Made by a program: the position numbers and the translations under genes
Shown here: positions 8,450 to 43,573 of the stretch, one piece after another
Layout of the letters: each line of letters begins with the position of its first letter
How positions within the stretch are numbered: the first letter of the stretch is position 1
The notes under the pieces: model-generated
Database searches by the model: none
What the model was told of the DNA's origin: nothing
Seen by the model: the letters and a program-made list of their open reading frames with translations, nothing else
Virus record (IMG/VR): IMGVR_UViG_2579778748_000005
From: a virus
Taxonomy: Duplodnaviria > Heunggongvirae > Uroviricota > Caudoviricetes
Strand: one strand, 5' to 3'
DNA: 45,520 bases

Positions 8450-8745
8450 TTCTTACCCCTGAATACGTTAAGCATCTTTTTTATTTCCTGAATATTGGCG
8501 CGTGCTTTCTCCCTGCTGGTGGGCACGTTACGCGGTACGGCCTGCACCAGAGAAAAATCACGATCGAACTGATAAACAGGCATCACGCAATCATATTCGT
8601 AGCCTTCACGACGGTAGGTTACGCGCCGTTCCTCCACGCCCTTAATCATTACCGTGCCGCCGTACTGGTCGCGGTAAATATCACCGCGCATGAATTTAGT
8701 GCGAGTTTTGCCACTGGCAGTTAAGCCAGAATATTTAAGTTTCAT
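8446..8745 (-). CDS. Hypothetical protein, 99 aa, coupled to primase
   Basis: GGAGA SD; stop overlaps the primase start (ATGA). Confidence 0.6.
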   Translation of the reverse strand: MKLKYSGLTASGKTRTKFMRGDIYRDQYGGTVMIKGVEERRVTYRREGYEYDCVMPVYQFDRDFSLVQAVPRNVPTSREKARANIQEIKKMLNVFRGKK

Positions 8746-8750
8746 TATTT

Positions 8751-8978
8751 TTATTCTCCGGTGTGGGGCGCTTTATTATTCTCGTGAATTGCCATAGCCT
8801 TATTGAGTTCATCAATAACAGGTGTCAATAATGTCTGAACAGCGGCAAACATTAATGATGAATGATCTTCGCCACCTTCCGGCACTTCAATTAATTTAAT
8901 TAACAACGCATTCATTTCGCGTGCTTTAATTAATGCGTTTTCAGAGTGGATTAATACTTCAAAAGGGATTTTATGCAT
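8751..8978 (-). CDS. Hypothetical protein, 75 aa
   Basis: ATG at 8978 with GGGAGA SD; AT-rich coding DNA. Confidence 0.5.
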   Translation of the reverse strand: MHKIPFEVLIHSENALIKAREMNALLIKLIEVPEGGEDHSSLMFAAVQTLLTPVIDELNKAMAIHENNKAPHTGE

Positions 8979-9201
8979 CACAAATTTTCTCCCTTATTCT
9001 TTTAATGTCCTCATTAAGGATGTCTGTAACTTTTATCAGCGAGTTTTTGGCAATTATTTTTATTGTTTTAAGTTTTCTTTTGTCGTGCTCCGACTGTGAT
9101 TTTCTCTCCATAATCTCCACCATGTGGGTAACATCAACGAGCGCACGTATCAGTATTTGCATTGCTTCTTCTGCTGCGTCCGGTGTGGTTTTATTGTGCA
9201 T
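8971..9201 (-). CDS. Hypothetical protein, 76 aa
   Basis: ATG at 9201 with AGGGAGA SD; overlaps the next gene by 8 nt. Confidence 0.5.
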   Translation of the reverse strand: MHNKTTPDAAEEAMQILIRALVDVTHMVEIMERKSQSEHDKRKLKTIKIIAKNSLIKVTDILNEDIKRIREKICDA

Positions 9202-9243
9202 AGGTTTCTCCCTGGCGGATTTTTGCAGCGAATACAGCAACAC

Positions 9244-9584
9244 AACCGGACGGGCAACGGCTACGCGCTTCGCGTTCCGTCCAGGCGGTTACGTGGATGA
9301 TTTGAGATTCTCCGGCACTCAGGGCCAGAAAACGCCACACAAAGGCCGTTTGTGTGTGTACAAGGTGTGGTATATGATTTACAGCAACCATAAATTTTTC
9401 CTCTCTATAGTGTTTGTGGTTAGACGCCCCGTATGTGTTTCCGGCACTGCGGGGCGTTGCTCTTTGTATTTCAACAATCCTTTCGGTGTGTTTCATGTTA
9501 TGAGCGCATGAAACACACGTCAAGGCTTTTTGTATTTCTTTTTTTGTGTATACTGAAACACACCGATGATTAGGAGTTTCAGAA
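9244..9584. promoter_or_regulatory. Divergent control region with a 12-bp perfect inverted repeat GTGTGTTTCATG-N9-CATGAAACACAC (9486..9518) and extra GAAACACAC half-sites
   Basis: Palindrome and half-sites (9553..9562, about 9345..9360) seen directly between the minus-strand operon and the plus-strand RHH gene. Confidence 0.5.
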
Positions 9585-9890
9585 ATGGCAACGTCTAACA
9601 AAAACGCAAAATCACAACTGACAACTGTCAGAGTCCCACTAGATGTTATGCAAGGGATGGAATCCGTTAAGCTGGACGGCGAAAGCAATGCCGGATTTAT
9701 CGTAACCGCCATGCGCGGAGAAATAGCCCGCCGCCAAGCAGAAGGCAGCGGAGAAAATCCCCTTGTGTCGTCACTGGATGCCCTGGCTAAGGTCGAACAA
9801 ATCGGCATCAAAGCAGCGGAAGAAATCGGGCAGCTTGTCACCGTTGCACGCGAAGAACTCCAGCGTCGCAAGACCAAAGAACCAGAGTAA
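9585..9890 (+). CDS. Ribbon-helix-helix-like DNA-binding protein, 101 aa (candidate island repressor)
   Basis: TAGGAG SD 8 nt upstream; TVRVPLDVMQGME...GESNAGFIVTAMRGEI fits a strand-helix-helix pattern. Confidence 0.6.
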   Translation: MATSNKNAKSQLTTVRVPLDVMQGMESVKLDGESNAGFIVTAMRGEIARRQAEGSGENPLVSSLDALAKVEQIGIKAAEEIGQLVTVAREELQRRKTKEPE

Positions 9891-9932
9891 TCACCATCAG
9901 CGCCGTGGTGTAAGGTATTACGGCGCATTGCT

Positions 9933-10121
9933 ATGCAGGACAACACAATGACCGATAAAGAATTGACCAAAACATTATCACCGGCACGGAAAAGACGGCG
10001 CAGAAAGATAGAACATGAATCAGAAAGATTCGCGCCATGTGCTTTTGCCCTTGAGCAATTCCTTAAAGAGTACAGGGAAAAGCGCTCATTGCAGGTATGG
10101 CAACGAACTGAACCAGACTGA
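9933..10121 (+). CDS. Hypothetical small basic protein, about 57-62 aa
   Basis: ORF downstream of the RHH gene in the same operon; start uncertain. Confidence 0.35.
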   Translation: MQDNTMTDKELTKTLSPARKRRRRKIEHESERFAPCAFALEQFLKEYREKRSLQVWQRTEPD

Positions 10122-10213
10122 TTGCATTGCCCACCAGCCTGATAGCGGCTATCATCCCCGTGCTTATGTTTGGGATCACACACACAAACGGCGCAGCGGG
10201 TTATCTGTTCAGA

Positions 10214-10245
10214 AAGGCGGCTCCATTTCGGGGCCGCTTTTTTTA
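10214..10245 (+). terminator. Putative intrinsic terminator of the RHH operon
   Basis: Short GC stem followed by a T7 run. Confidence 0.45.
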
Positions 10246-10390
10246 TGCCTGAAAAACCCCAATTTTGTGGTTTTCCAGTCTCACCAGGGCGAACGAATCC
10301 CCGCCCACGTTCTGGCGTATATTCAATCTTCATGGTTATAGCTCTGTGTTCAGATGATTGATGTGTGGCGGCTGTGTGCCGCCAGCGTGA

Positions 10391-10579
10391 TTAATGAACT
10401 GCCTTGCAGCTATCCTTCCAGGCCAGAACCTCGGATAAAGACCAGCCAACGGAACGACCGCCAAGTTTACGACGTGATGGGAATTGTCCGGCCTTTTCCA
10501 GGCGGTAGCGACACGTACGGCTAAGGCCGGTTAGTTTTTCGCATTCTTTTTCACGTATAAACCGATCAGTGCTTAACAC
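10391..10579 (-). CDS. alpA: AlpA-family excisionase/regulator, 62 aa
   Basis: LTGLSRTCRYRLEKAGQFPSRRKLGGRSVGWSLSEVLAW matches the AlpA HTH signature as recalled. Confidence 0.8.
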   Translation of the reverse strand: MLSTDRFIREKECEKLTGLSRTCRYRLEKAGQFPSRRKLGGRSVGWSLSEVLAWKDSCKAVH

Positions 10580-10943
10580 TATTGCCCCCTTTCGTTTCTT
10601 AAAGAGTCATCAGGTGTCTTATTGTGTCGTATTGTTCCCGCTAGAGTGATGAATGGCAAATACTGAGGATGTATGATTTACAGAAAATGAAACAGTAAGA
10701 ATAAAATCTTTTAAATTCATGTTAATACAAAGGAATAAAATATTGTTCCATGCCTTTTTTCTCGCTCTTTAAAGAGTGATTCGCTAGTGTATAAAAAACC
10801 AGTAACACATTAAAAATCAGCCACTTATAAATCCGTACGCTTTTTCGCCTCTTGTTCGTAGTTGTTCCACATTGTTGCTCATTGTTGCACGTTGTATCTG
10901 TTCGCATATCCAGTATGTGCATACTGAAAAAACACGAAAAAAA

Positions 10944-12194
10944 TTATTTTCTTCTGGCTACTGGTAGCGTGGTTACGTTTTCATGTGTTCCCGCCAGTAT
11001 CCCTAACCGCTCCGTCCACATATCCAGCGCATTGCGTTTAGCATCCAGATAACGGGAATGATTATAAACTCGCTGCATTCCTGGCATCTGGTGGCCTGTA
11101 AGCTGCTCCACGACGTGAGGATCCACGCCTAAATCGTTCAGCATCGTTGTAAAGGTGCGCCGGATGTCATGTAGTGACCAGTGAGGGTGATTTAGCCTCC
11201 TGTGCGCTAATCTGCCGTACTGCGACACGCTTGTTTCCTGTTTCACTTCCCCCAGCAATAAGCCCGTGTGCCTGTTCTGCTCCACCAGCTGCGTGACGAA
11301 CGGCAGTATTGCTTCCGGTATGGGCCGGAATATTGCCACCTTCGTTTTGCTGTGTTCTTTCGGCACGGTCCAGAGCATTTCGGTAAAATCCCACTCGCTG
11401 ATCTCCGATAACCTCAGTTCTACCGTCCGGCATCCGAACACAATCAGGAGGCGGATTAACGCGATGTAGTAGGGGGAGAATATTTTTTTGTCCAGTGCCT
11501 GCAATAATTCGCCCAGTTCTTTGGTGTTTAAGACACGCTCGCTTATATCCGGTTTTTTCCCAACGTCCGCCACACTCATATCATCAAGAACGTTGCTGAT
11601 TGCATAGCGCCGCCTCCGGCAGAACTTAAGCGCCTGTTTGCACGTCTGTAGCAAGAATCCGGCAGTAACAGGCGTTCGCTTTGCCACCTGGTCAAAACAG
11701 GCCAGCCAGTGCCGTAGCTCGCATTTATCCAGCGGCATAGCACCAATGTGCTGTATTACGTGATTATTAAGGCGCTTTTTCAGGGCGGCATAATCCACGC
11801 GGTTTTCCTTTGCGTACGACTCAAGCCAGTAGGTGAGCGCATCGCCAACCGTTACCGGCTTTAACGCTTCCTGTACGGTGTAATTAAGCTCATGACGTGG
11901 ATTTTTCCCCTCTGCCAGCCATGCGCGACACTGGGCGGCTTTTTCCCTGGCTGATTTCAGGCTCAGATCAGGATAATTTCCCAGCTTAATGCGTTCCGGT
12001 GGTGCCCCCCTTCCCGTTCCGGCCCTGTAAGTGAAATACCAGGTTAAAAGGCCACTGGTTGAATGCCTGACGCTCAGGTTTCCACCGTCATTAAGAAAGG
12101 CTGTTTTTTGGGCGGGTGTGCCGTTGATTTTCCTCAGCTGTGTATCGCTCAGTTTGTTAAGTGCTCTGCTCATAATTTTGATTCCGGTCATCAC
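10944..12194 (-). CDS. int: Tyrosine integrase (P4-type), about 409-416 aa; start probably ATG at 12173
   Basis: C-terminal catalytic region with R...HxxR...Y (HDIRRTF, YNHSRY); next to attR. Confidence 0.92.
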   Translation of the reverse strand: MMTGIKIMSRALNKLSDTQLRKINGTPAQKTAFLNDGGNLSVRHSTSGLLTWYFTYRAGTGRGAPPERIKLGNYPDLSLKSAREKAAQCRAWLAEGKNPRHELNYTVQEALKPVTVGDALTYWLESYAKENRVDYAALKKRLNNHVIQHIGAMPLDKCELRHWLACFDQVAKRTPVTAGFLLQTCKQALKFCRRRRYAISNVLDDMSVADVGKKPDISERVLNTKELGELLQALDKKIFSPYYIALIRLLIVFGCRTVELRLSEISEWDFTEMLWTVPKEHSKTKVAIFRPIPEAILPFVTQLVEQNRHTGLLLGEVKQETSVSQYGRLAHRRLNHPHWSLHDIRRTFTTMLNDLGVDPHVVEQLTGHQMPGMQRVYNHSRYLDAKRNALDMWTERLGILAGTHENVTTLPVARRK

Positions 12195-12199
12195 AATTA

Positions 12200-12230
12200 A
12201 CTACACCATTAACTACACCGATCGTTGCAC
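12200..12230. repeat. attR core, identical to 1548..1578
   Basis: Exact 31-bp direct repeat. Confidence 0.7.
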
Positions 12231-12421
12231 AAAGGGCTACAACGTGAAACAAGCTGGAACAAGGAAAATCACAAATCTGTTTATAATCAAAAACATAATG
12301 AACAATCTGAAACATTATGAAACGGCAAAAAACACTAATTGATAAAATATGTCCATACTTCACGCATTACGTTAAGCATCCGTTATAATCGGTTGCAGAT
12401 ACCAGCCTGTGGATGCTTAAC

Positions 12422-13543
12422 ATGGAATACCAACTCACTCTTAACTGGCCCGATTTTCTTGAACGTCACTGGCAGAAACGTCCGGTGGTGTTAAAACGCG
12501 GCTTTAATAATTTTATTGACCCGATCTCTCCAGACGAGTTGGCGGGTTTGGCGATGGAAAGCGAAGTCGACAGTCGACTGGTCAGTCACCAGGATGGCAA
12601 ATGGCAGGTCAGCCACGGCCCGTTCGAAAGCTACGATCATCTCGGTGAAACTAACTGGTCATTGTTAGTGCAGGCAGTGAACCACTGGCATGAGCCGACC
12701 GCCGCGCTGATGCGACCGTTCCGTGAACTACCGGACTGGCGTATTGATGATCTGATGATCTCTTTTTCTGTACCTGGCGGCGGCGTCGGCCCGCATCTCG
12801 ATCAGTACGACGTGTTTATCATTCAGGGTACCGGACGTCGTCGCTGGCGAGTGGGCGAAAAGCTGCAAATGAAACAGCACTGCCCACATCCGGATCTGTT
12901 ACAGGTCGATCCGTTCGAAGCCATCATCGATGAAGAGCTGGAGCCTGGCGATATCCTTTATATTCCGCCAGGATTCCCGCATGAAGGCTACGCGCTGGAA
13001 AATGCGATGAACTATTCCGTGGGTTTTCGCGCGCCAAATACGCGGGAATTAATTAGCGGATTTGCCGATTATGTGCTGCAACGTGAACTGGGCGGCAACT
13101 ACTACAGCGATCCGGATGTTCCACCTCGCGCTCATCCTGCGGACGTTCTGCCGCAAGAGATGGATAAACTGCGTGAGATGATGCTCGAATTGATCAACCA
13201 GCCGGAACACTTTAAGCAATGGTTTGGCGAGTTTATATCCCAGTCACGTCATGAACTGGATATCGCGCCGCCAGAGCCGCCTTATCAGCCGGATGAAATC
13301 TACGATGCGCTAAAACAAGGTGATGTGCTGGTGCGCCTGGGTGGTCTGCGCGTATTGCGCATTGGCGACGACGTGTATGCCAATGGTGAGAAGATCGATT
13401 CCCCGCACCGTCCGGCACTGGATGCGCTCGCCAGCAACATTGCGCTGACCGCGGAGAATTTTGGTGATGCACTGGAAGATCCGTCATTCCTCGCGATGCT
13501 CGCAGCGCTGGTCAATAGCGGGTATTGGTTCTTCGAAGGGTAA
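12422..13543 (+). CDS. roxA: Ribosomal protein-arginine oxygenase RoxA (YcfD), 373 aa
   Basis: Translation from MEYQLTLNWPDFLERHWQKRP matches E. coli YcfD as recalled. Confidence 0.95.
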   Translation: MEYQLTLNWPDFLERHWQKRPVVLKRGFNNFIDPISPDELAGLAMESEVDSRLVSHQDGKWQVSHGPFESYDHLGETNWSLLVQAVNHWHEPTAALMRPFRELPDWRIDDLMISFSVPGGGVGPHLDQYDVFIIQGTGRRRWRVGEKLQMKQHCPHPDLLQVDPFEAIIDEELEPGDILYIPPGFPHEGYALENAMNYSVGFRAPNTRELISGFADYVLQRELGGNYYSDPDVPPRAHPADVLPQEMDKLREMMLELINQPEHFKQWFGEFISQSRHELDIAPPEPPYQPDEIYDALKQGDVLVRLGGLRVLRIGDDVYANGEKIDSPHRPALDALASNIALTAENFGDALEDPSFLAMLAALVNSGYWFFEG

Positions 13544-15067: not shown

Positions 15068-16204
15068 ATGGGACAGAGTAAAAAATTGAATAAACAACCG
15101 AGTTCGCTTTCACCGCTGGTGCAATTGGCGGGAATTCGCAAATGCTTTGATGGTAAAGAGGTCATTCCCCAGCTGGATCTGACTATCAACAATGGCGAGT
15201 TCCTCACGCTGCTTGGCCCTTCTGGCTGCGGTAAAACAACCGTTCTTCGCCTGATTGCAGGTCTGGAAACTGTTGATTCCGGACGCATCATGCTGGATAA
15301 CGAGGACATCACCCACGTTCCGGCGGAAAACCGCTATGTGAATACTGTTTTCCAAAGCTACGCACTTTTCCCCCACATGACCGTGTTCGAAAATGTGGCC
15401 TTTGGGTTGCGCATGCAAAAAACCCCCGCTGCTGAAATTACGCCCCGCGTGATGGAAGCCCTGCGGATGGTGCAGCTGGAAACCTTCGCTCAACGCAAAC
15501 CGCATCAGCTCTCTGGTGGTCAACAGCAACGCGTCGCCATTGCCCGCGCGGTGGTTAACAAGCCTCGTCTGTTGTTGCTGGATGAGTCGCTCTCAGCACT
15601 GGATTACAAACTGCGCAAGCAAATGCAGAACGAGCTGAAAGCGTTACAGCGTAAGCTTGGCATTACATTCGTCTTCGTGACTCACGACCAGGAAGAAGCA
15701 CTCACCATGTCGGACAGGATTGTGGTGATGCGCGATGGTCGCATTGAGCAAGACGGCACGCCGCGTGAAATCTATGAAGAGCCGAAAAACCTGTTTGTTG
15801 CTGGGTTTATTGGCGAAATCAATATGTTTAACGCCACTGTCATCGAACGTCTCGACGAGCAGCGCGTACGCGCCAACGTTGAAGGCCGCGAATGTAATAT
15901 CTACGTTAACTTCGCCGTTGAACCGGGGCAAAAACTGCATGTTCTGCTGCGCCCGGAAGACTTACGTGTTGAAGAGATTAACGACGACAACCACGCTGAA
16001 GGGCTGATTGGTTACGTTCGCGAGCGTAACTACAAAGGCATGACGCTGGAGTCGGTTGTTGAACTGGAAAATGGCAAGATGGTGATGGTCAGCGAATTCT
16101 TCAATGAAGACGATCCTGACTTTGACCACTCTCTCGACCAAAAAATGGCCATTAATTGGGTAGAAAGCTGGGAGGTCGTACTGGCTGATGAAGAACACAA
16201 GTAA
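15068..16204 (+). CDS. potA: Spermidine/putrescine ABC transporter ATPase PotA, 378 aa
   Basis: Walker [10 protein letters not shown], signature LSGGQQQR, Walker B LLLDE; matches PotA as recalled. Confidence 0.95.
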
Positions 16205-17051
16205 GTTCCAGAATGTAGTGATTGTCACTATTGTCGGTTGGCTTGTGTTGTTTGTCTTTCTGCCCAACCTGATGATCATTGGCACCAGCTTTTTGACCCG
16301 CGACGACGCCAGTTTCGTCAAAATGGTCTTTACGCTGGATAACTACACGCGTCTGCTCGATCCGCTCTATTTTGAAGTGCTATTGCACTCGCTGAATATG
16401 GCGCTGATCGCCACCCTCGCCTGCCTGGTGCTGGGCTATCCTTTTGCCTGGTTTCTGGCGAAGCTGCCACACAAGGTGCGTCCGCTGCTGCTGTTTCTGC
16501 TGATTGTTCCGTTCTGGACCAACTCATTGATTCGTATCTACGGGCTGAAAATTTTCCTCAGCACCAAAGGCTATCTCAACGAGTTTTTGCTCTGGCTGGG
16601 CGTTATTGATACACCAATTCGCATCATGTTCACGCCCAGTGCGGTGATTATCGGTCTGGTTTACATTCTGCTACCGTTTATGGTGATGCCGCTGTACTCC
16701 AGTATCGAAAAACTGGATAAGCCGTTGCTTGAGGCGGCGCGCGATCTCGGTGCCAGCAAGTTGCAGACCTTTATCCGCATCATTATCCCACTGACGATGC
16801 CGGGAATTATTGCCGGATGTCTGCTGGTGATGCTGCCAGCGATGGGCCTGTTCTATGTGTCCGACCTGATGGGCGGTGCGAAAAACCTGCTGATCGGTAA
16901 CGTCATCAAGGTTCAGTTCCTCAATATTCGTGACTGGCCGTTTGGTGCAGCCACCAGCATTACGCTGACTATCGTAATGGGCCTGATGTTGCTGGTTTAC
17001 TGGCGCGCTTCTCGTCTGCTGAATAAGAAGGTGAGCGAATTAGATGATTAA
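16188..17051 (+). CDS. potB: Spermidine/putrescine ABC transporter permease PotB (287-codon ORF; annotated start may be internal)
   Basis: Multi-TM permease matching PotB; overlaps the potA stop; C-terminus lies at the prophage junction. Confidence 0.9.
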
Positions 17052-17202
17052 TCCTTTATATTCAATGCATTAAGTTTGTTTTTGAGTGGTTTTGCCGTTT
17101 AAGGTAACGACGTTATAGATCCTATCAAAATCAATCAATTCCATTCTGGTTTTGGAGAAAGATTTTTCGAGAGCTTCGGTCTTTAACTAAAACTGATTGC
17201 GT

Positions 17203-17393
17203 ATAATCCCAATACCCCTCCCCGACTATCTGAATGGTCGGGGAGGCACTTCAAGCACAAAATATCATCCCTGCGCCGTTGATTACTCTGCAGGTGAAGT
17301 CGGCCACTCAATATCAGGTGCAGTTGATGTATCAACACGATTCAACAATACCCGATATTTATTCCATGCCTCCAGCAACGATCTTTCTTCCTC
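17203..17393. repeat. Direct repeat copy 1 (tfa 3' end plus downstream sequence)
   Basis: Recurs at 18316..18450 with an internal deletion; the two copies flank the methyltransferase gene. Confidence 0.6.
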
Positions 17394-17549
17394 CGTTGCG
17401 ATTTCCAGATCTACAGCATCCTGCAGTGGCGCAATATACTCACTGAATTCCTGGATGTAGAACTGTGTGGTGACGGTCTTCCAGCCATTCGGCTCCTGCT
17501 GTATCGAAGCATACCAGGCTATTTCAATATCGCTATGCTGCGGCAGCAT
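17283..17549 (-). pseudogene. Tail fiber assembly protein (Tfa) C-terminal fragment, 88 codons
   Basis: Ends ...[44 protein letters not shown], the conserved Tfa C-terminus; N-terminal about 100 codons absent. Confidence 0.7.
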
Positions 17550-17617
17550 TTAACCCCTTGTAATTCATCGCCATAATTGATTTAATTCACAAATAAAACT
17601 ATAATACGGTGAAACTA

Positions 17618-18274
17618 ATGAAAAAAAACACAGATGATGGGGCTAAAATTTACACACCACTTACCCTAAAGCTTTATGACTGGTGGGTTTTGGGAGTATC
17701 AAATTGGCTTGCATGGGGATGTCCTACAAAGGAACACCTTCTTCCACACTTTCTGGAACATTTAGGTAACAACCATCTGGATATTGGCGTTGGAACTGGG
17801 TTTTACCTTACTCACGTACCTGAGAGCAGTCTGATATCTTTAATGGATTTGAACGAAGCTAGCCTGAACGCGGCATCGACAAGGGCTGGGGAATCAAAAA
17901 TTAAACATAAAATTAGCCATGATGTTTTTGATCCTTATCCCGCGGCGTTACATGGTCAATTTGATTCCATTTCCATGTTTTACCTTCTTCACTGCCTGCC
18001 TGGAAATATATCTACAAAAAGCTGTGTAATACGCAATGCGGCGCAGGCCTTAACTGACGATGGAACTCTATACGGAGCCACAATTCTTGGCGATGGAGTT
18101 GTGCACAATAGCTTCGGTCAAAAACTGATGCGCATTTACAATCAGAAAGGCATCTTTTCAAACACAAAAGATTCCGAAGAAGGCTTAACACATATACTCT
18201 CAGAGCATTTCGAGAATGTTAAAACCAAGGTTCAAGGTACTGTAGTAATGTTTTCCGCTTCAGGGAAAAAATAG
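17618..18274 (+). CDS. Class I SAM-dependent methyltransferase, about 218 aa, cargo gene
   Basis: Motif I LDIGVGTG, acidic post-I residue (LMDLN), motif II DSISMFYLLHCLP, motif III LTDDGTLY; AT-rich relative to neighbours. Confidence 0.75.
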   Translation: MKKNTDDGAKIYTPLTLKLYDWWVLGVSNWLAWGCPTKEHLLPHFLEHLGNNHLDIGVGTGFYLTHVPESSLISLMDLNEASLNAASTRAGESKIKHKISHDVFDPYPAALHGQFDSISMFYLLHCLPGNISTKSCVIRNAAQALTDDGTLYGATILGDGVVHNSFGQKLMRIYNQKGIFSNTKDSEEGLTHILSEHFENVKTKVQGTVVMFSASGKK

Positions 18275-40894: not shown

Positions 40895-41375
40895 CGAGTA
40901 AATCCGGTAATTTATCCCCCGCCCGCGCACACTGATTTGCCCCCTTCGCAATAAGGGTTTTCAGATGGTCAAGATGGCGCGGTGTTAAATCAGGAAACTG
41001 TCGCTGCATGGATAAAGGGATGGAATCAAGCGTACTGGATAACGCCATTGCCAGCTTGCTGAGAGCAAAAATACAGAACCCGGTATCAATAAGTTTTCCT
41101 TTTGACACCTCATTTTTTAACTGCTGTGTAACAGCCTGTTCTGCTGTCAGTTCCCATCTGGCAATAAGCAATTTCTCCTCATAGTCGTCTTCGCTATCGC
41201 CATCAGGCACATCGTTTTTACTTCTTCTCAGATACGATATGTAAAAATCGCGCCAGGCATCCAGATCCAGTTGCCCTCGCTTATTCGATATCGGGGCACC
41301 CGGCAATTTCTGCAATCTGCGAAGCTGGCGATCGGTCAGACTTAAATGCCTGGCAACTTCAGTCTGCGTAGCCAC
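40866..41375 (-). CDS. nu1: Terminase small subunit Nu1, 169 aa (GTG start)
   Basis: C-terminal half matches lambda Nu1 (LSxQRxFP, LLxEYI); N-terminal wHTH diverged; GAGGTGAGGAG SD. Confidence 0.9.
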   Translation of the reverse strand: MATQTEVARHLSLTDRQLRRLQKLPGAPISNKRGQLDLDAWRDFYISYLRRSKNDVPDGDSEDDYEEKLLIARWELTAEQAVTQQLKNEVSKGKLIDTGFCIFALSKLAMALSSTLDSIPLSMQRQFPDLTPRHLDHLKTLIAKGANQCARAGDKLPDLLDEYIRATTE

Positions 41376-41414
41376 TCCTCACCTCGCAAAAACTCTCACT
41401 TCACAATCACAACA

Positions 41415-41558
41415 AAACCGGTCATGTCCGGCTTACATGTCTATTTTTTGTGCATGCCCGGTTCACAGAAGACCTCTTTTTTTATTTTTCATATAGTTAA
41501 CTTGAAGAGAAACCGGACATGGTTCCCGGAAAATTTTCATAAATAGCGAAAACCCGCG
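41415..41558 (-). promoter_or_regulatory. Prophage cosB (CCGGACATG-type R sites and AT-rich bend)
   Basis: Motifs seen between cosN and the nu1 start. Confidence 0.65.
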
Positions 41559-41570
41559 AGGTCGCCGCCC
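41559..41570 (-). other. Prophage cosN, GGGCGGCGACCT
   Basis: Identical to the recalled lambda 12-nt cohesive end; flanking sequence matches the lambda cos region. Confidence 0.85.
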
Positions 41571-41718
41571 CGTAACCTGTTGGATCGACGGAAAGGACCC
41601 GAAAACGAGAATAATTATCACTTACAGCAAGAATCGAATCTGATCTATTATGGTGCTTGCTATTATGTGCCGGCACAAGTGCGTCGTTTACCGTCATTTC
41701 ACACAGAGGCATCATCAA

Positions 41719-41970
41719 ATGAAAATCAGAAATATTCTCGCTATCTCCCTTGCAACATCATCCTTCAGTTGCCTGGCATTTAAATCCTCGCCCAATGTGC
41801 TACCAGGACCAACGAATCAACTAACTGCGGTAGAAAGTAAAATTATCGGACATTTTTATGCCCCACACAGTGCATTACCCGGAACAACCATCACAGGGAC
41901 ATGTGACGCCTCCCCCGTCCCGGGATGCACCTGTCCGTTTTGTACTATGCTGCGTAGCCAAAACCGATAA
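41719..41970 (+). CDS. Predicted secreted cysteine-containing small protein, 83 aa (moron)
   Basis: Sec-type signal peptide MKIRNILAISLATSSFSCLA; mature part has 4 Cys (TGTCDASPVPGCTCPFC); antisense to the late operon. Confidence 0.5.
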   Translation: MKIRNILAISLATSSFSCLAFKSSPNVLPGPTNQLTAVESKIIGHFYAPHSALPGTTITGTCDASPVPGCTCPFCTMLRSQNR

Positions 41971-42031
41971 CATCCGCATTTACCTGGTATTACATGATGA
42001 GTTCACGCAGCGACTGATAGAGGAAGGAAAG

Positions 42032-42211
42032 ATGGTTAGTAAAAGCAAGGCGCATTGCCGCCGCATGCTGCAGGCATTGCAACAGACGAGAGCAGGTATT
42101 TTTGACCAGTTGGAAAACTGCCAGCATACTTTGCCCGAGTATATCGCCATCTCATCGGAAACCAGTGCAACTCTTATTCATCGGGTTCCACCAGAGAAAA
42201 AGAAGAAATGA
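42032..42211 (+). CDS. Hypothetical protein, 59 aa (moron)
   Basis: Strong SD GAGGAAGGAAAG; followed by a GGCGTTGT...ACAACGCC hairpin. Confidence 0.4.
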   Translation: MVSKSKAHCRRMLQALQQTRAGIFDQLENCQHTLPEYIAISSETSATLIHRVPPEKKKK

Positions 42212-42333
42212 ACAGTGAGGCGTTGTGTGGCATACAACGCCTTCTTCCATCATTCCTCGTCAGCCATGACAAAAATATAACCGCTGGCTCTTTCATTTTT
42301 CTCCTGCGTCCAGCCCCTCTCTACCTGGAAGCA

Positions 42334-42660
42334 TCAAGGACGTGACGGCGTAAAGATAAATTGTCTCTTCACTCCCTGACAGGGGCGATTCTTTTCAAAT
42401 CGCCATTTCGCCATGGCCTTCACCACTTCATCACGAAACAAATTATGAGGCTCTGAGCGGAGAAAAACGATCCGTGTCACAGTCCCATCAGCACCAATAT
42501 CGAACTTAACCTCAACCAGCCCCTTGATATAATTTGCTGCAGCATATTCCGGATATCGTGGATACACCGTCACTAATTGCCGGGGCTCATCAGCTTTTTG
42601 CTGCGAGCATCCCACTGCCAGGACAGATAACAGAAAAAGTAGTAAAAGGCGTCTTTTCAT
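42334..42660 (-). CDS. Lipoprotein with TonB C-terminal-like domain, 108 aa (moron)
   Basis: Lipobox LAVGC; PRYPEYAAANYIKGLVEVKFDIGADGTVTRIVFLRSEPHNLFRDEVVKAMAKWRFE parallels the recalled TonB C-terminal domain ([57 protein letters not shown]). Confidence 0.75.
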   Translation of the reverse strand: MKRRLLLLFLLSVLAVGCSQQKADEPRQLVTVYPRYPEYAAANYIKGLVEVKFDIGADGTVTRIVFLRSEPHNLFRDEVVKAMAKWRFEKNRPCQGVKRQFIFTPSRP

Positions 42661-42971
42661 TTTTATTCCTACGGGTCTTATTCTGACAATATATCCTGTG
42701 TTCCAGACTGCCACATCACCACATCCTGTGCCATTATCTGACTCACATTACATACATCGCATCGGGATACAGTAGTAGCACTTTCTGTAATACAGCTTCC
42801 TGTTTCTTCCACCATCGCACCGGGATAAACCCGCGAATCATTAACGCGGTAAAAAACCCGGTGTGCATCGTTTTTAATTATCCCCGCACACTCGCGCAGA
42901 GGAGTCTCCCTGTCGGGCTGCGGTCTCTGTTAATGAGGGAATATAGCGACGATACGGCGCATCAACAAAAC

Positions 42972-43445
42972 TTATTTCAGGCACTGAGTGCGGATATAGT
43001 CCTGTGCCCCTTCCAGTTGCTTGTGCATCGTCATCAGCCGCTCTCTGAGGGTGAAATAATCCCGTGTAACGGTGTCTGCCAGTTGGGGGCCGGTTGCATT
43101 ATCCACGCCGGAGGTGGTGGGGGCTTCACGCACGGAGCCTGGACAGGTGGCGTTGATCCGCAGGCGCTTACGACCAGCGGCAACGTCAGCGCGAAGAGTT
43201 TCATTTTCAGCTCTCGCATCGGCTAATTCCCTCGAGTATTTTGCATCGAGCGCAGCAACATCGCGCTGGCGCACCTGCATATCAGTAATGGTTGCGTTCG
43301 CCAGCTTCAGTTCACTGGCTTTGTTATCGCGCTGCGCTTTGTAGGTAATCGCGTTATCACGGTAATGGTCTGTTGCCATCCACAGCGCACCACAGGCCAC
43401 CAGCAGAATAACGATAAACGCGGAAAGCATTCGGTTTATGTTCAC
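42972..43445 (-). CDS. Rz: Spanin Rz (i-spanin), 157 aa
   Basis: [14 protein letters not shown]...DVAAGRKRL matches recalled lambda Rz. Confidence 0.9.
43034..43219 (-). CDS. Rz1: Spanin Rz1 (o-spanin lipoprotein), embedded in Rz in the +1 frame
   Basis: Lipobox VVSAC and [14 protein letters not shown] motif as in lambda Rz1. Confidence 0.8.
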
Positions 43446-43573
43446 CCCAGCAACCCCGACGAAGACAACATCATCCAGGCCATGGAAAGAAAAAGAGCAA
43501 CCAGCATTAGTGAAAATGAAATGCCGACAATTACACAGAGGATCTTCGCCAGCGTTATGAGTTTGTCTGACAT
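43442..43573 (-). CDS. Small single-TM membrane protein, 43 aa, coupled to Rz
   Basis: GGGAGG SD; stop overlaps the Rz start codon. Confidence 0.5.

What the first reader, a model, noticed from the sequence alone, without database searches (positions are those of the whole stretch)
42334..42660. Prophage lipoprotein made essentially of a TonB C-terminal domain
Seen: lipobox LAVGC followed by about 85 aa that parallel the TonB C-terminal domain block for block. Established: TonB-dependent receptors such as FhuA are used by phages (T1, phi80) and group B colicins. Inference: a periplasmic TonB C-terminal decoy could bind receptor TonB boxes and block TonB-dependent phage or colicin entry, a superinfection-exclusion mechanism.
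Basis: partly seen in the sequence, partly recalled or inferred. Interest (0 to 1): 0.6.

Follow-up and report, generated by a model that had tools for sequence, protein, structure and literature searches.

The report
Prophage outer-membrane lipoprotein mimicking TonB's tip
A very common E. coli prophage gene encodes a small outer-membrane lipoprotein consisting of just the receptor-docking end of TonB; it probably sits under the cell's iron-uptake receptors and jams them, which would protect the cell against phages and colicins that need TonB, but nobody has tested this.

Summary
Window 42660..42334 (minus strand) encodes a 108-aa protein with a signal peptide and lipobox (LAVG-C18, Ser at +2), a 7-residue tether, then a TonB C-terminal domain. 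Residues 24-103 align without gaps to E. coli TonB 151-230 (Pfam 7e-13, PDB 1e-14). The AlphaFold model fits TonB as bound to BtuB and FhuA at about 1 Å.

The gene is already known. It is identical in phage 21 ('TonB C-terminal domain protein'), Perceval ('TonB fragment') and RefSeq WP_000830178.1. It occurs in 23% of complete E. coli genomes, and a 72%-identical allele in a further 8%.

It is not a broken tonB. dN/dS between the alleles is 0.13, and 80 of 80 viral copies are intact. It groups with short TonB_C lipoproteins of Klebsiella, Raoultella and Serratia. It is transcribed in the LF82 lysogen above its silent late-gene neighbours. It sits after Rz/Rz1 and before terminase in four phage lineages. 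The PHROG label 'spanin' is wrong.

The decoy idea is plausible, because engineered periplasmic TonB fragments inhibit TonB-dependent uptake. It is untested, and TonB residues Q160, R158 and R166 are replaced. I found no functional study.

The parts
42334..42660 (-). Complete CDS (108 aa plus stop) of the TonB_C lipoprotein. Identical to phage 21 CPT_21_73, Perceval LF82_160 and RefSeq WP_000830178.1.
42607..42660 (-). Signal peptide and lipobox (M1-C18; LAVG|C). Cys18 is the predicted lipidated first residue of the mature protein. Residue +2 is Ser, so outer-membrane sorting is predicted.
   Evidence: Sequence. Cys is invariant in alignment A3. Residue +2 is S, T, A or V in all relatives.
42586..42606 (-). 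Short flexible tether (S19-E25) between the lipid anchor and the folded domain.
   Evidence: pLDDT 54-86 over the first 30 residues. The spacing from the lipobox Cys to the conserved Pro is 6-15 residues in relatives.
42352..42585 (-). TonB C-terminal domain (P26-F103, equivalent to E. coli TonB P153-F230). It includes the YP motif (Y36 P37) and the last strand, residues 94-103, equivalent to TonB beta3. No equivalent of TonB 231-239 follows; the protein ends TPSRP.
42667..42670 (-). AGGA ribosome-binding site, 6 nt upstream of the ATG.
   Evidence: The same site is annotated as RBS in phage 21.
42816..42961 (-). Non-coding upstream stretch. It is shared with phage 21 and the 72% allele and is better conserved than the coding sequence. 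It may be a promoter or regulatory region, but no convincing sigma-70 site was found.
   Evidence: negative results
42678..42815 (-). 45-codon ORF directly upstream (annotated hypothetical CPT_21_72 in phage 21). Only about the first 10 codons are kept in the 72% allele, so it is probably not a conserved protein.
41571..42961 (-). The whole mobile module (upstream region, TonB_C gene, small ORFs, down to cos). It is 98.6% identical to the right end of the phage 21 genome. The bor cassette that precedes it in phage 21 is absent here.
42972..43445 (-). Context: the genuine i-spanin Rz, with the o-spanin Rz1 embedded at 43034-43219. This shows that the TonB_C lipoprotein is not the spanin.

Best explanation
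This is a prophage accessory gene (moron) encoding a small lipoprotein. [quoted passage not shown] There a 7-residue tether holds a stand-alone TonB C-terminal domain against the periplasmic face of the membrane. I propose that the domain captures the TonB-box strand of TonB-dependent transporters (FhuA, FepA, CirA, BtuB and others), and possibly the TonB boxes of incoming group B colicins. It would do so by the same strand-to-strand pairing that TonB uses. It has no membrane anchor, no proline-rich rod and no ExbB/ExbD contact, so it cannot deliver energy. It would therefore act as a competitive, dominant-negative cap that dampens TonB-dependent import. The lysogen would become less sensitive to TonB-dependent phages (T1, phi80 and similar), colicins and microcins. 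Entry of the carrier phage through LamB would be unaffected. Shown: the fold, the domain boundaries, lipobox conservation, purifying selection, transcription in a lysogen, and the recurrent position in phage genomes. Inferred: outer-membrane location, TonB-box binding, the inhibitory effect, and the benefit to the lysogen.
For: (1) Fold and boundaries. TonB_C by Pfam, NCBIfam and PDB. The model superposes on TonB from the BtuB and FhuA complexes at about 1 Å. The folded part corresponds to TonB 153-230, nearly the same span as the 81-residue TonB chain of the BtuB complex (query 26-103 aligns to chain residues 1-78). The last strand and all core aromatic residues are kept (F53, F75, W86, F88, F103).
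(2) Location. The lipobox Cys is invariant and the +2 residue is never Asp. The tether is only 6-15 residues in all relatives. This places the domain where TonB boxes emerge.
(3) Precedent. Overexpression of the periplasmic TonB domain inhibits iron import by TonB-dependent transporters. A TonB-box pentapeptide inhibits colicin killing and phi80 infection (PMC9841981, citing Howard 2001 and Tuckman 1992).
(4) The gene is functional. dN/dS is 0.13 (0.11 in the domain) at dS 1.37 between the two E. coli alleles. All 80 IMG/VR copies are intact. It is present in 1225 and 415 of 5426 complete genomes for the two alleles.
(5) It is expressed in lysogens. LF82_160, the identical protein, was listed as a moron at 8-fold above prophage background. 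Its values are log2 5.0-6.6 in all ten sample columns, against 2.3-4.4 for endolysin, Rz and terminase.
(6) Same slot, right after the spanins and before terminase, in E. coli lambdoid phages of both alleles, a Klebsiella phage and a Serratia prophage. In phage 21 this slot also holds the bor moron.
(7) Phage 21 uses LamB, so the carrier loses nothing.
(8) Outer-membrane lipoproteins that exclude phages by acting on a TonB-dependent transporter from the periplasmic side already exist (T5 Llp, Cor).
Against: There is no experiment. The paper searches that bore on this gene found no functional study, and PADLOC has no model for it. TonB residues linked to TonB-box or cork contacts, by my recollection of the genetics and the 2006 complex structures, are replaced: Q160->Y33 (L or H in relatives), R158->T31, R166->Y39. 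Transcript levels are modest, whereas TonB-dependent transporters can be very abundant, so titration may be incomplete. A general block of siderophore and B12 uptake should be costly, yet up to about 30% of complete E. coli genomes carry the gene. Relatives sit in ordinary chromosomal contexts in Raoultella, Klebsiella and Serratia, which suggests a physiological role not tied to phages. TonB_C domains can evolve other ligands; FusB binds ferredoxin (PDB 9hi3 among the hits). I could not check whether a 7-residue tether allows the docking orientation seen in the crystal complexes.
Confidence: 0.45

Rival explanations
1. The outcome is the same but the target differs. The lipoprotein binds the C-terminal domain of host TonB itself, as a heterodimer, and traps it at the outer membrane. 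It would poison the scarce transducer rather than cap the abundant receptors.
For: TonB is far less abundant than its transporters (Higgs 2002, as cited in PMC9841981), so a weakly expressed protein could titrate it. Short TonB fragments crystallise as intertwined dimers (1ihr and 1qxx among the hits; the dimer state is from my own knowledge). The core aromatic residues are conserved.
Against: The physiological relevance of TonB C-terminal dimers is disputed (my own knowledge). The protein lacks the C-terminal strand that mediates strand exchange in those dimers. Nothing here speaks directly to this mechanism.
Confidence: 0.1
2. It is an envelope lipoprotein with a different ligand. The TonB_C fold would serve as a generic binding module for a specific transporter, another protein with a TonB-box-like strand, peptidoglycan, or a host factor. 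Its role would be in envelope physiology, iron homeostasis or virulence, not in exclusion.
For: Chromosomal, non-prophage homologues lie next to lacZ/lacI and a DUF1440 gene in Raoultella and Klebsiella, and near nhaB in Serratia. In a simple neighbour-joining tree the phage proteins group with these and not with true TonB domains. Residues at TonB positions 158, 160 and 166 are replaced, and Tyr at the R166 position is the usual residue in the closest relatives. FusB shows a TonB_C domain binding ferredoxin. The neighbouring morons Bor and Lom act on host interaction (Bor annotation; Lom). Perceval also carries sitABCD.
Against: No alternative ligand is indicated by any result. The domain keeps the exact boundaries and the edge strand used for TonB-box pairing. 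Expression in LF82 does not respond to macrophage or DMEM conditions, unlike bor.
Confidence: 0.3
3. It acts in lysis or late in infection, as the PHROG label 'Rz-like spanin' implies. It could be a second o-spanin, or a factor that loosens TonB-mediated links between the membranes before envelope disruption.
For: The best PHROG match is phrog_1267, 'Rz-like spanin' (5e-43). The gene lies directly after Rz/Rz1, co-oriented with the late operon, in four phage lineages. In the Serratia prophage it overlaps the terminase small-subunit start by 4 nt.
Against: A genuine Rz (phrog_13, 1.6e-73) with embedded Rz1 (phrog_3198, 1.3e-29) is present next door, as it is in phage 21 and the Serratia prophage. 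The protein has no proline-rich Rz1-like sequence and is a globular TonB_C domain. It is transcribed in lysogens while the lysis genes are silent. The PHROG name most likely reflects position and the lipobox only.
Confidence: 0.04
4. It is a non-functional remnant of a captured host tonB gene, as the old annotations 'partial tonB-like' and 'TonB fragment' suggest.
For: Annotations in ev017, CP-933N and Perceval. The protein covers only the last third of TonB.
Against: dN/dS is 0.13 at saturating dS. All 80 copies are intact. The gene has acquired a conserved lipoprotein signal peptide. It is only 38-42% identical to enterobacterial TonB domains and groups with a separate clade of short lipoproteins. 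It is transcribed.
Confidence: 0.02

Closest known systems
E. coli TonB C-terminal domain (residues about 150-239; PDB 1u07, 1xx3, 2gsk, 2grx)
   Same: The same fold at about 1 Å rmsd, 38-40% identity and a gap-free alignment over 80 residues. The YP motif, the core aromatic residues and the last strand are conserved.
   Different: It has no N-terminal transmembrane anchor, no proline-rich spacer and no ExbB/ExbD coupling. It is anchored to the outer membrane by lipid instead of to the inner membrane. It lacks TonB 231-239. Q160, R158 and R166 are replaced. NCBIfam TonB equivalog scores are 45-69 bits against cutoffs of 265-448.
Engineered periplasmic TonB fragments (Howard, Herrmann, Stratilo and Braun 2001, J Bacteriol 183:5885)
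   Same: A TonB C-terminal domain delivered to the periplasm without its energy-coupling part. It is reported to inhibit import through TonB-dependent transporters (cited in PMC9841981). This is the direct functional precedent for a decoy.
   Different: Those fragments are artificial, soluble, overexpressed and made from E. coli TonB itself. The protein here is natural, lipid-anchored, diverged and weakly expressed. I could not read the original paper. Details beyond the citing sentence come from my memory.
T5 Llp and the Cor proteins of phi80, HK022, N15 and mEp167
   Same: Small phage-encoded outer-membrane lipoproteins that act from the periplasmic side on a TonB-dependent transporter (FhuA) to exclude other phages.
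   Different: The fold is unrelated; Pfam and PHROGs give no Llp or Cor match. Llp and Cor are specific for FhuA and act allosterically on the receptor used by the carrier phage. A TonB mimic would be independent of receptor identity and would work only against TonB-dependent entry. It would not affect T5.
Short TonB_C-only lipoproteins of Enterobacterales (unnamed; 'TonB family protein')
   Same: The same architecture (lipobox, tether of about 6-15 residues, one TonB_C domain, 107-133 aa) at 41-50% identity. They share SEPxHLFD and KWRFE motifs and usually a Tyr at the TonB R166 position.
   Different: Many are chromosomal with no phage genes nearby. Their function is equally unknown, so they do not explain the phage protein.

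Membership tests
TonB_C domain (Pfam PF03544 / TIGR01352) | Profile score above the curated cutoff | tested here: met
   PF03544 scores 49.2 bits against a cutoff of 24.6. TIGR01352 scores 47.4 against 27.1.
TonB_C domain (Pfam PF03544 / TIGR01352) | Three-stranded sheet packed on two helices, superposable on solved TonB C-terminal domains | tested here: met
   The model has pLDDT about 97 over residues 30-100. Foldseek gives target TM 0.91-0.92 and rmsd 0.9-1.5 Å to 1u07, 2gsk_B and 2grx_C.
TonB energy transducer (full-length TonB, NCBIfam PRK10819 equivalogs) | N-terminal inner-membrane anchor that couples to ExbB/ExbD, plus a proline-rich periplasmic spacer | tested here: not met
   The N-terminus is a cleavable lipoprotein signal. 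Only 7 residues separate Cys18 from the domain. Equivalog scores are 45-69 bits against cutoffs of 265-448.
Bacterial lipoprotein (SPase II substrate) | Basic n-region, hydrophobic core and a lipobox [LVI][ASTVI][GAS]C-like motif within the first 35 residues or so | tested here: met
   MKRR-LLLLFLLSVLAVG-C18. The Cys is invariant in 13 relatives. Lipidation itself cannot be tested here.
Bacterial lipoprotein (SPase II substrate) | Outer-membrane sorting (no Lol-avoidance Asp at +2) | tested here: met
   Residue +2 is Ser here and S, T, A or V in relatives. Actual localisation cannot be tested with these tools.
TonB-box-binding inhibitor of TonB-dependent transport (functional class; precedent is engineered TonB fragments) | Binds TonB boxes and reduces TonB-dependent uptake, phage infection or colicin killing | not testable with these tools
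   This needs binding and phenotype assays. Only the edge strand and the fold are shown to be conserved.
Cor / Llp superinfection-exclusion lipoproteins | Sequence or fold similarity to Llp or Cor | tested here: not met
   Pfam at E<=1 returns only TonB_C. The PHROG hits are phrog_1267 and a TonB-like family. The top fold hits are all TonB.
o-spanin (Rz1-like), as labelled for phrog_1267 | Short proline-rich lipoprotein, embedded in or next to Rz, that serves as the sole outer-membrane spanin subunit | tested here: not met
   A separate Rz1 (43034-43219, phrog_3198) is embedded in Rz (phrog_13). This protein is a globular TonB_C domain.
Known anti-phage defence systems (PADLOC-DB v2) | Match to any defence-protein model | tested here: not met
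   No PADLOC family matched at E<=1.

The most novel reading that the evidence does not exclude
A natural, lipid-anchored mimic of TonB's docking domain acts as a receptor-independent shield. By capping TonB boxes from inside the outer membrane it would lower sensitivity to all TonB-dependent phages, group B colicins and microcins at once. It would do this in up to about 30% of E. coli strains. The chromosomal relatives in Klebsiella, Raoultella and Serratia would then be built-in brakes on TonB-dependent transport.
Probability: 0.35. Interest if true: 0.75.

Novelty: new variant of a known kind. Interest (0 to 1): 0.5.

Why it matters
If the decoy mechanism holds, it would be a new mode of prophage-conferred protection. 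It would target the shared energy-coupling step rather than a single receptor. It is carried by a large share of E. coli, including Stx-phage lysogens and the AIEC strain LF82. It would affect how susceptibility to T1-like therapeutic phages, colicins, microcins and siderophore-antibiotic conjugates is predicted. All of these enter through TonB-dependent transporters. It would also provide a natural tool for probing TonB-box exposure in vivo. If it does not hold, this remains a widespread, conserved, expressed outer-membrane lipoprotein of unknown function. It carries misleading labels in databases ('partial TonB', 'TonB fragment', 'Rz-like spanin').

Tried and rejected
- Single-sequence AlphaFold2 gave a useless model (pLDDT 51). 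It was replaced by a run on an alignment.
- PADLOC returned nothing.
- Rfam scan of 41300-43500 at E<=1 found nothing. The conserved upstream 156 nt does not fold better than shuffles (z=-1.4).
- The promoter scan found no minus-strand sigma-70 site upstream. A TTGTTG-17-TATATT match that I spotted by eye at 42968-42940 scores only 8 of 12, and its -10 is not conserved in phage 21 or the 72% allele. I dropped it.
- Fur-box scan: the best match in the window (15 of 19, at 41601-41619) lies about 700 bp downstream of the gene, near cos, not upstream. There is no evidence for iron regulation.
- I checked whether the carrier phage depends on TonB. The J C-terminus is of the lambda/Stx-phage type and phage 21 uses LamB. 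Self-exclusion is rejected.
- The 45-codon upstream ORF as a partner protein: it is not conserved in the 72% allele and has no PHROG match.
- Ten literature searches were run. Those aimed at this gene found no functional work on it.
- The Howard 2001 paper is not held.
- The first genome-wide locus search with a broad alignment failed for lack of a conserved stretch. A narrower alignment worked.
- The IMG/VR scan returned only the two E. coli alleles, so it added no diversity.

Full report
**What is there**

The finding's coordinates hold a minus-strand gene. Its ATG is at 42660, its stop at 42336-42334, and an AGGA ribosome-binding site lies 6 nt upstream. The 108-aa product begins MKRRLLLLFLLSVLAVGC.

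After a 7-residue stretch (SQQKADE) the rest is a TonB C-terminal domain. Pfam TonB_C gives E=7.3e-13 (49 bits, cutoff 24.6) and TIGR01352 gives E=1.8e-12. The best PDB sequence matches are E. coli TonB C-terminal domains at E about 1e-14. Residues 24-103 align to TonB 151-230 without a gap.

A single-sequence AlphaFold run was poor. With a 26-sequence alignment the model reached pLDDT about 97 over residues 30-100. It superposes on TonB taken from the BtuB and FhuA complexes with target TM 0.91-0.92 and rmsd about 1 Å.

**Anatomy relative to TonB**

Phage residue n corresponds to TonB residue n+127.

- Kept: the YP motif (Y36 P37), the core aromatic residues (F53, F75, W86, F88, F103) and the last strand, residues 94-103. 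By my recollection of the 2006 complex structures, the equivalent TonB strand pairs with the TonB box.
- Boundaries: the folded part spans TonB 153-230. This is nearly the same span as the 81-residue TonB chain in the BtuB complex.
- C-terminus: the protein ends TPSRP straight after the last strand, so it has no counterpart of TonB 231-239.
- Missing: the inner-membrane anchor and the proline-rich spacer. NCBIfam TonB equivalogs score 45-69 bits against cutoffs of 265-448. It is therefore a TonB_C-domain protein and not a TonB.
- Replaced: Q160->Y33, R158->T31 and R166->Y39. I recall these TonB positions as important for TonB-box or cork contacts. Tyr at the R166 position is the usual residue in the closest relatives.

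**It is a known, very common gene**

The protein is 100% identical in phage 21 (CPT_21_73, 'TonB C-terminal domain protein'), ev017 ('partial tonB-like membrane protein encoded within prophage CP-933N'), Perceval ('TonB fragment') and several ECOR prophages. RefSeq calls it WP_000830178.1, 'TonB family protein'.

It is present in 1225 of 5426 complete E. coli genomes. A 72%-identical allele, found in Stx1a phages, is present in another 415. I did not check how far these two genome sets overlap.

The 1.39-kb module from 42961 to cos (41571) is 98.6% identical to the right end of phage 21. The bor cassette that precedes it in phage 21 is absent here.

**It is a working gene, not a tonB remnant**

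- Between the two E. coli alleles dN/dS is 0.13 (0.11 in the domain) at dS 1.37.
- All 80 IMG/VR copies are intact.
- The lipobox Cys is invariant across 13 relatives, and residue +2 is never Asp.
- An exhaustive HMMER search found a set of short proteins (about 107-133 aa) with the same architecture at 41-50% identity in the domain. In a simple neighbour-joining tree the phage proteins group with these and not with true enterobacterial TonB domains.
- Some relatives are chromosomal. In Raoultella and Klebsiella they lie near lacZ/lacI and a DUF1440 gene, and in Serratia near nhaB. Others are in prophages.
- In a Klebsiella phage and a Serratia prophage the gene occupies the same slot as here, directly after the spanins and before terminase.

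**Expression**

In the AIEC strain LF82 the identical gene (LF82_160) was listed as a moron, transcribed 8-fold above the Perceval background (PMC9928086). The supplementary table shows log2 values of 5.0-6.6 in all ten sample columns, against 2.3-4.4 for the adjacent endolysin, Rz and terminase genes. There is no significant change in the paper's differential-expression comparison (log2 change 0.26), whereas bor next to it changes strongly (log2 change 7.1).

I could not identify the promoter. The scan found none on the right strand. A weak match seen by eye is not conserved. The upstream non-coding 145 bp is better conserved between alleles than the coding sequence, yet it has no Rfam match and no unusual fold.

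**Mechanism**

An outer-membrane-tethered TonB docking domain cannot transmit energy. It would occupy TonB boxes and dampen TonB-dependent import.

- Precedent comes from engineered constructs. Overexpressed periplasmic TonB domain inhibits import by TonB-dependent transporters. A TonB-box peptide inhibits colicin killing and phi80 infection (PMC9841981, citing Howard 2001 and Tuckman 1992). The Howard paper is not held.
- The short tether (6-15 residues in all relatives) would hold the domain at the periplasmic face of the outer membrane.
- Phage 21 uses LamB, and this prophage's J C-terminus is of the lambda/Stx-phage type. Any exclusion would therefore act on other phages or on colicins and microcins, not on the carrier.
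- T5 Llp and Cor show that phage outer-membrane lipoproteins acting on a TonB-dependent transporter from the periplasm already exist, though with an unrelated fold.

**Reasons for caution**

- There is no experimental evidence, and PADLOC has no model.
- The contact residues listed above are replaced.
- Transcript levels are modest compared with what would be needed to saturate abundant transporters.
- Blocking siderophore uptake should be costly.
- The chromosomal relatives argue for a role not tied to phages.
- TonB_C domains can acquire other ligands, as with FusB and ferredoxin.

I put the decoy mechanism at 0.45 and a different-ligand envelope role at 0.30. TonB poisoning by heterodimerisation gets 0.10, a lysis role 0.04, and a dead remnant 0.02.

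**The lysis label is wrong**

phrog_1267, the best PHROG match, is named 'Rz-like spanin'. However, a genuine Rz (phrog_13) with embedded Rz1 (phrog_3198) sits next door, and this protein is a globular TonB_C domain.

**Verdict**

The gene has been annotated for years, so the sequence is not new. What would be new is the function: a natural TonB mimic acting as a receptor-independent shield. I rate it a new variant of a known kind, with interest 0.5.

Noticed in passing
window 2000-12200: Between phoQ (1-1461) and the roxA/ycfD-like JmjC gene (12413-13543) lies a small integrated element. It has an integrase (10944-12194), a D5-type primase (6695-8449), an SSB-like ORF (5721-6131), a repressor-like ORF (9191-10333) and a major capsid protein E gene (3946-5001). 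It looks like a phage satellite or PICI-type island.
   Followed up: partly
window 15068-18274: potA-like and potB-like ABC transporter genes (15068-17051) are followed at once by prophage DNA: a methyltransferase ORF at 17609-18274, then the side tail fibre, Lom and J. The left prophage junction therefore seems to lie just after potB. The attachment site was not mapped.
   Followed up: no
window 42816-42961 (minus strand): The non-coding stretch upstream of the TonB_C gene is nearly identical between the two alleles, although their coding sequences are only 73% identical at the DNA level. This could be a shared regulatory region or a recombination boundary. It has no Rfam hit and no significant fold.
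   Followed up: partly
window 41601-41619 and 41719-41970 (+): The best Fur-box-like match in the whole window (15 of 19) lies near cos. About 100 bp downstream, on the plus strand, an unannotated 83-codon ORF starts with a signal-peptide-like MKIRNILAISLATSSFSCLA. It has no PHROG match. This may be chance in AT-rich DNA.
   Followed up: partly
window 42962-43008 versus L001 (phage 21) 3162-3700: Phage 21 and Perceval carry bor (minus strand) between Rz and the TonB_C module. This prophage has only 47 bp there, so bor and the TonB_C gene are separate, independently assorting morons.
   Followed up: yes
PHROGs phrog_1267: The family that best matches this protein is labelled 'Rz-like spanin' (lysis). 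The label appears to be wrong, probably through its position and lipobox. It will propagate into phage annotations.
   Followed up: yes
L085-L090 (Raoultella/Klebsiella chromosomes) and L003 (Klebsiella phage ST13-OXA48phi12.4): In several Raoultella and Klebsiella chromosomes (L086-L088) the short TonB_C lipoprotein gene is followed by a 187-aa ORF, confirmed as DUF1440 only in L087. The Klebsiella phage that carries a TonB_C lipoprotein also has a DUF1440 gene 3 kb away. This may be a linked pair or a coincidence.
   Followed up: no
protein cluster P0003: The representative of a 130-member cluster carries a frameshift that replaces the last strand (…GVRDNLSLRRHVLDASR). Some lineages may therefore have lost the strand needed for TonB-box pairing. 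I did not check how many members share it.
   Followed up: no
window 42032-42211 (+): A 59-aa ORF is annotated by RefSeq on the strand opposite to the late genes, just downstream of the TonB_C gene. It matches phrog_4843 (unknown function) at 4e-47. The 72% allele has a different small ORF there.
   Followed up: no
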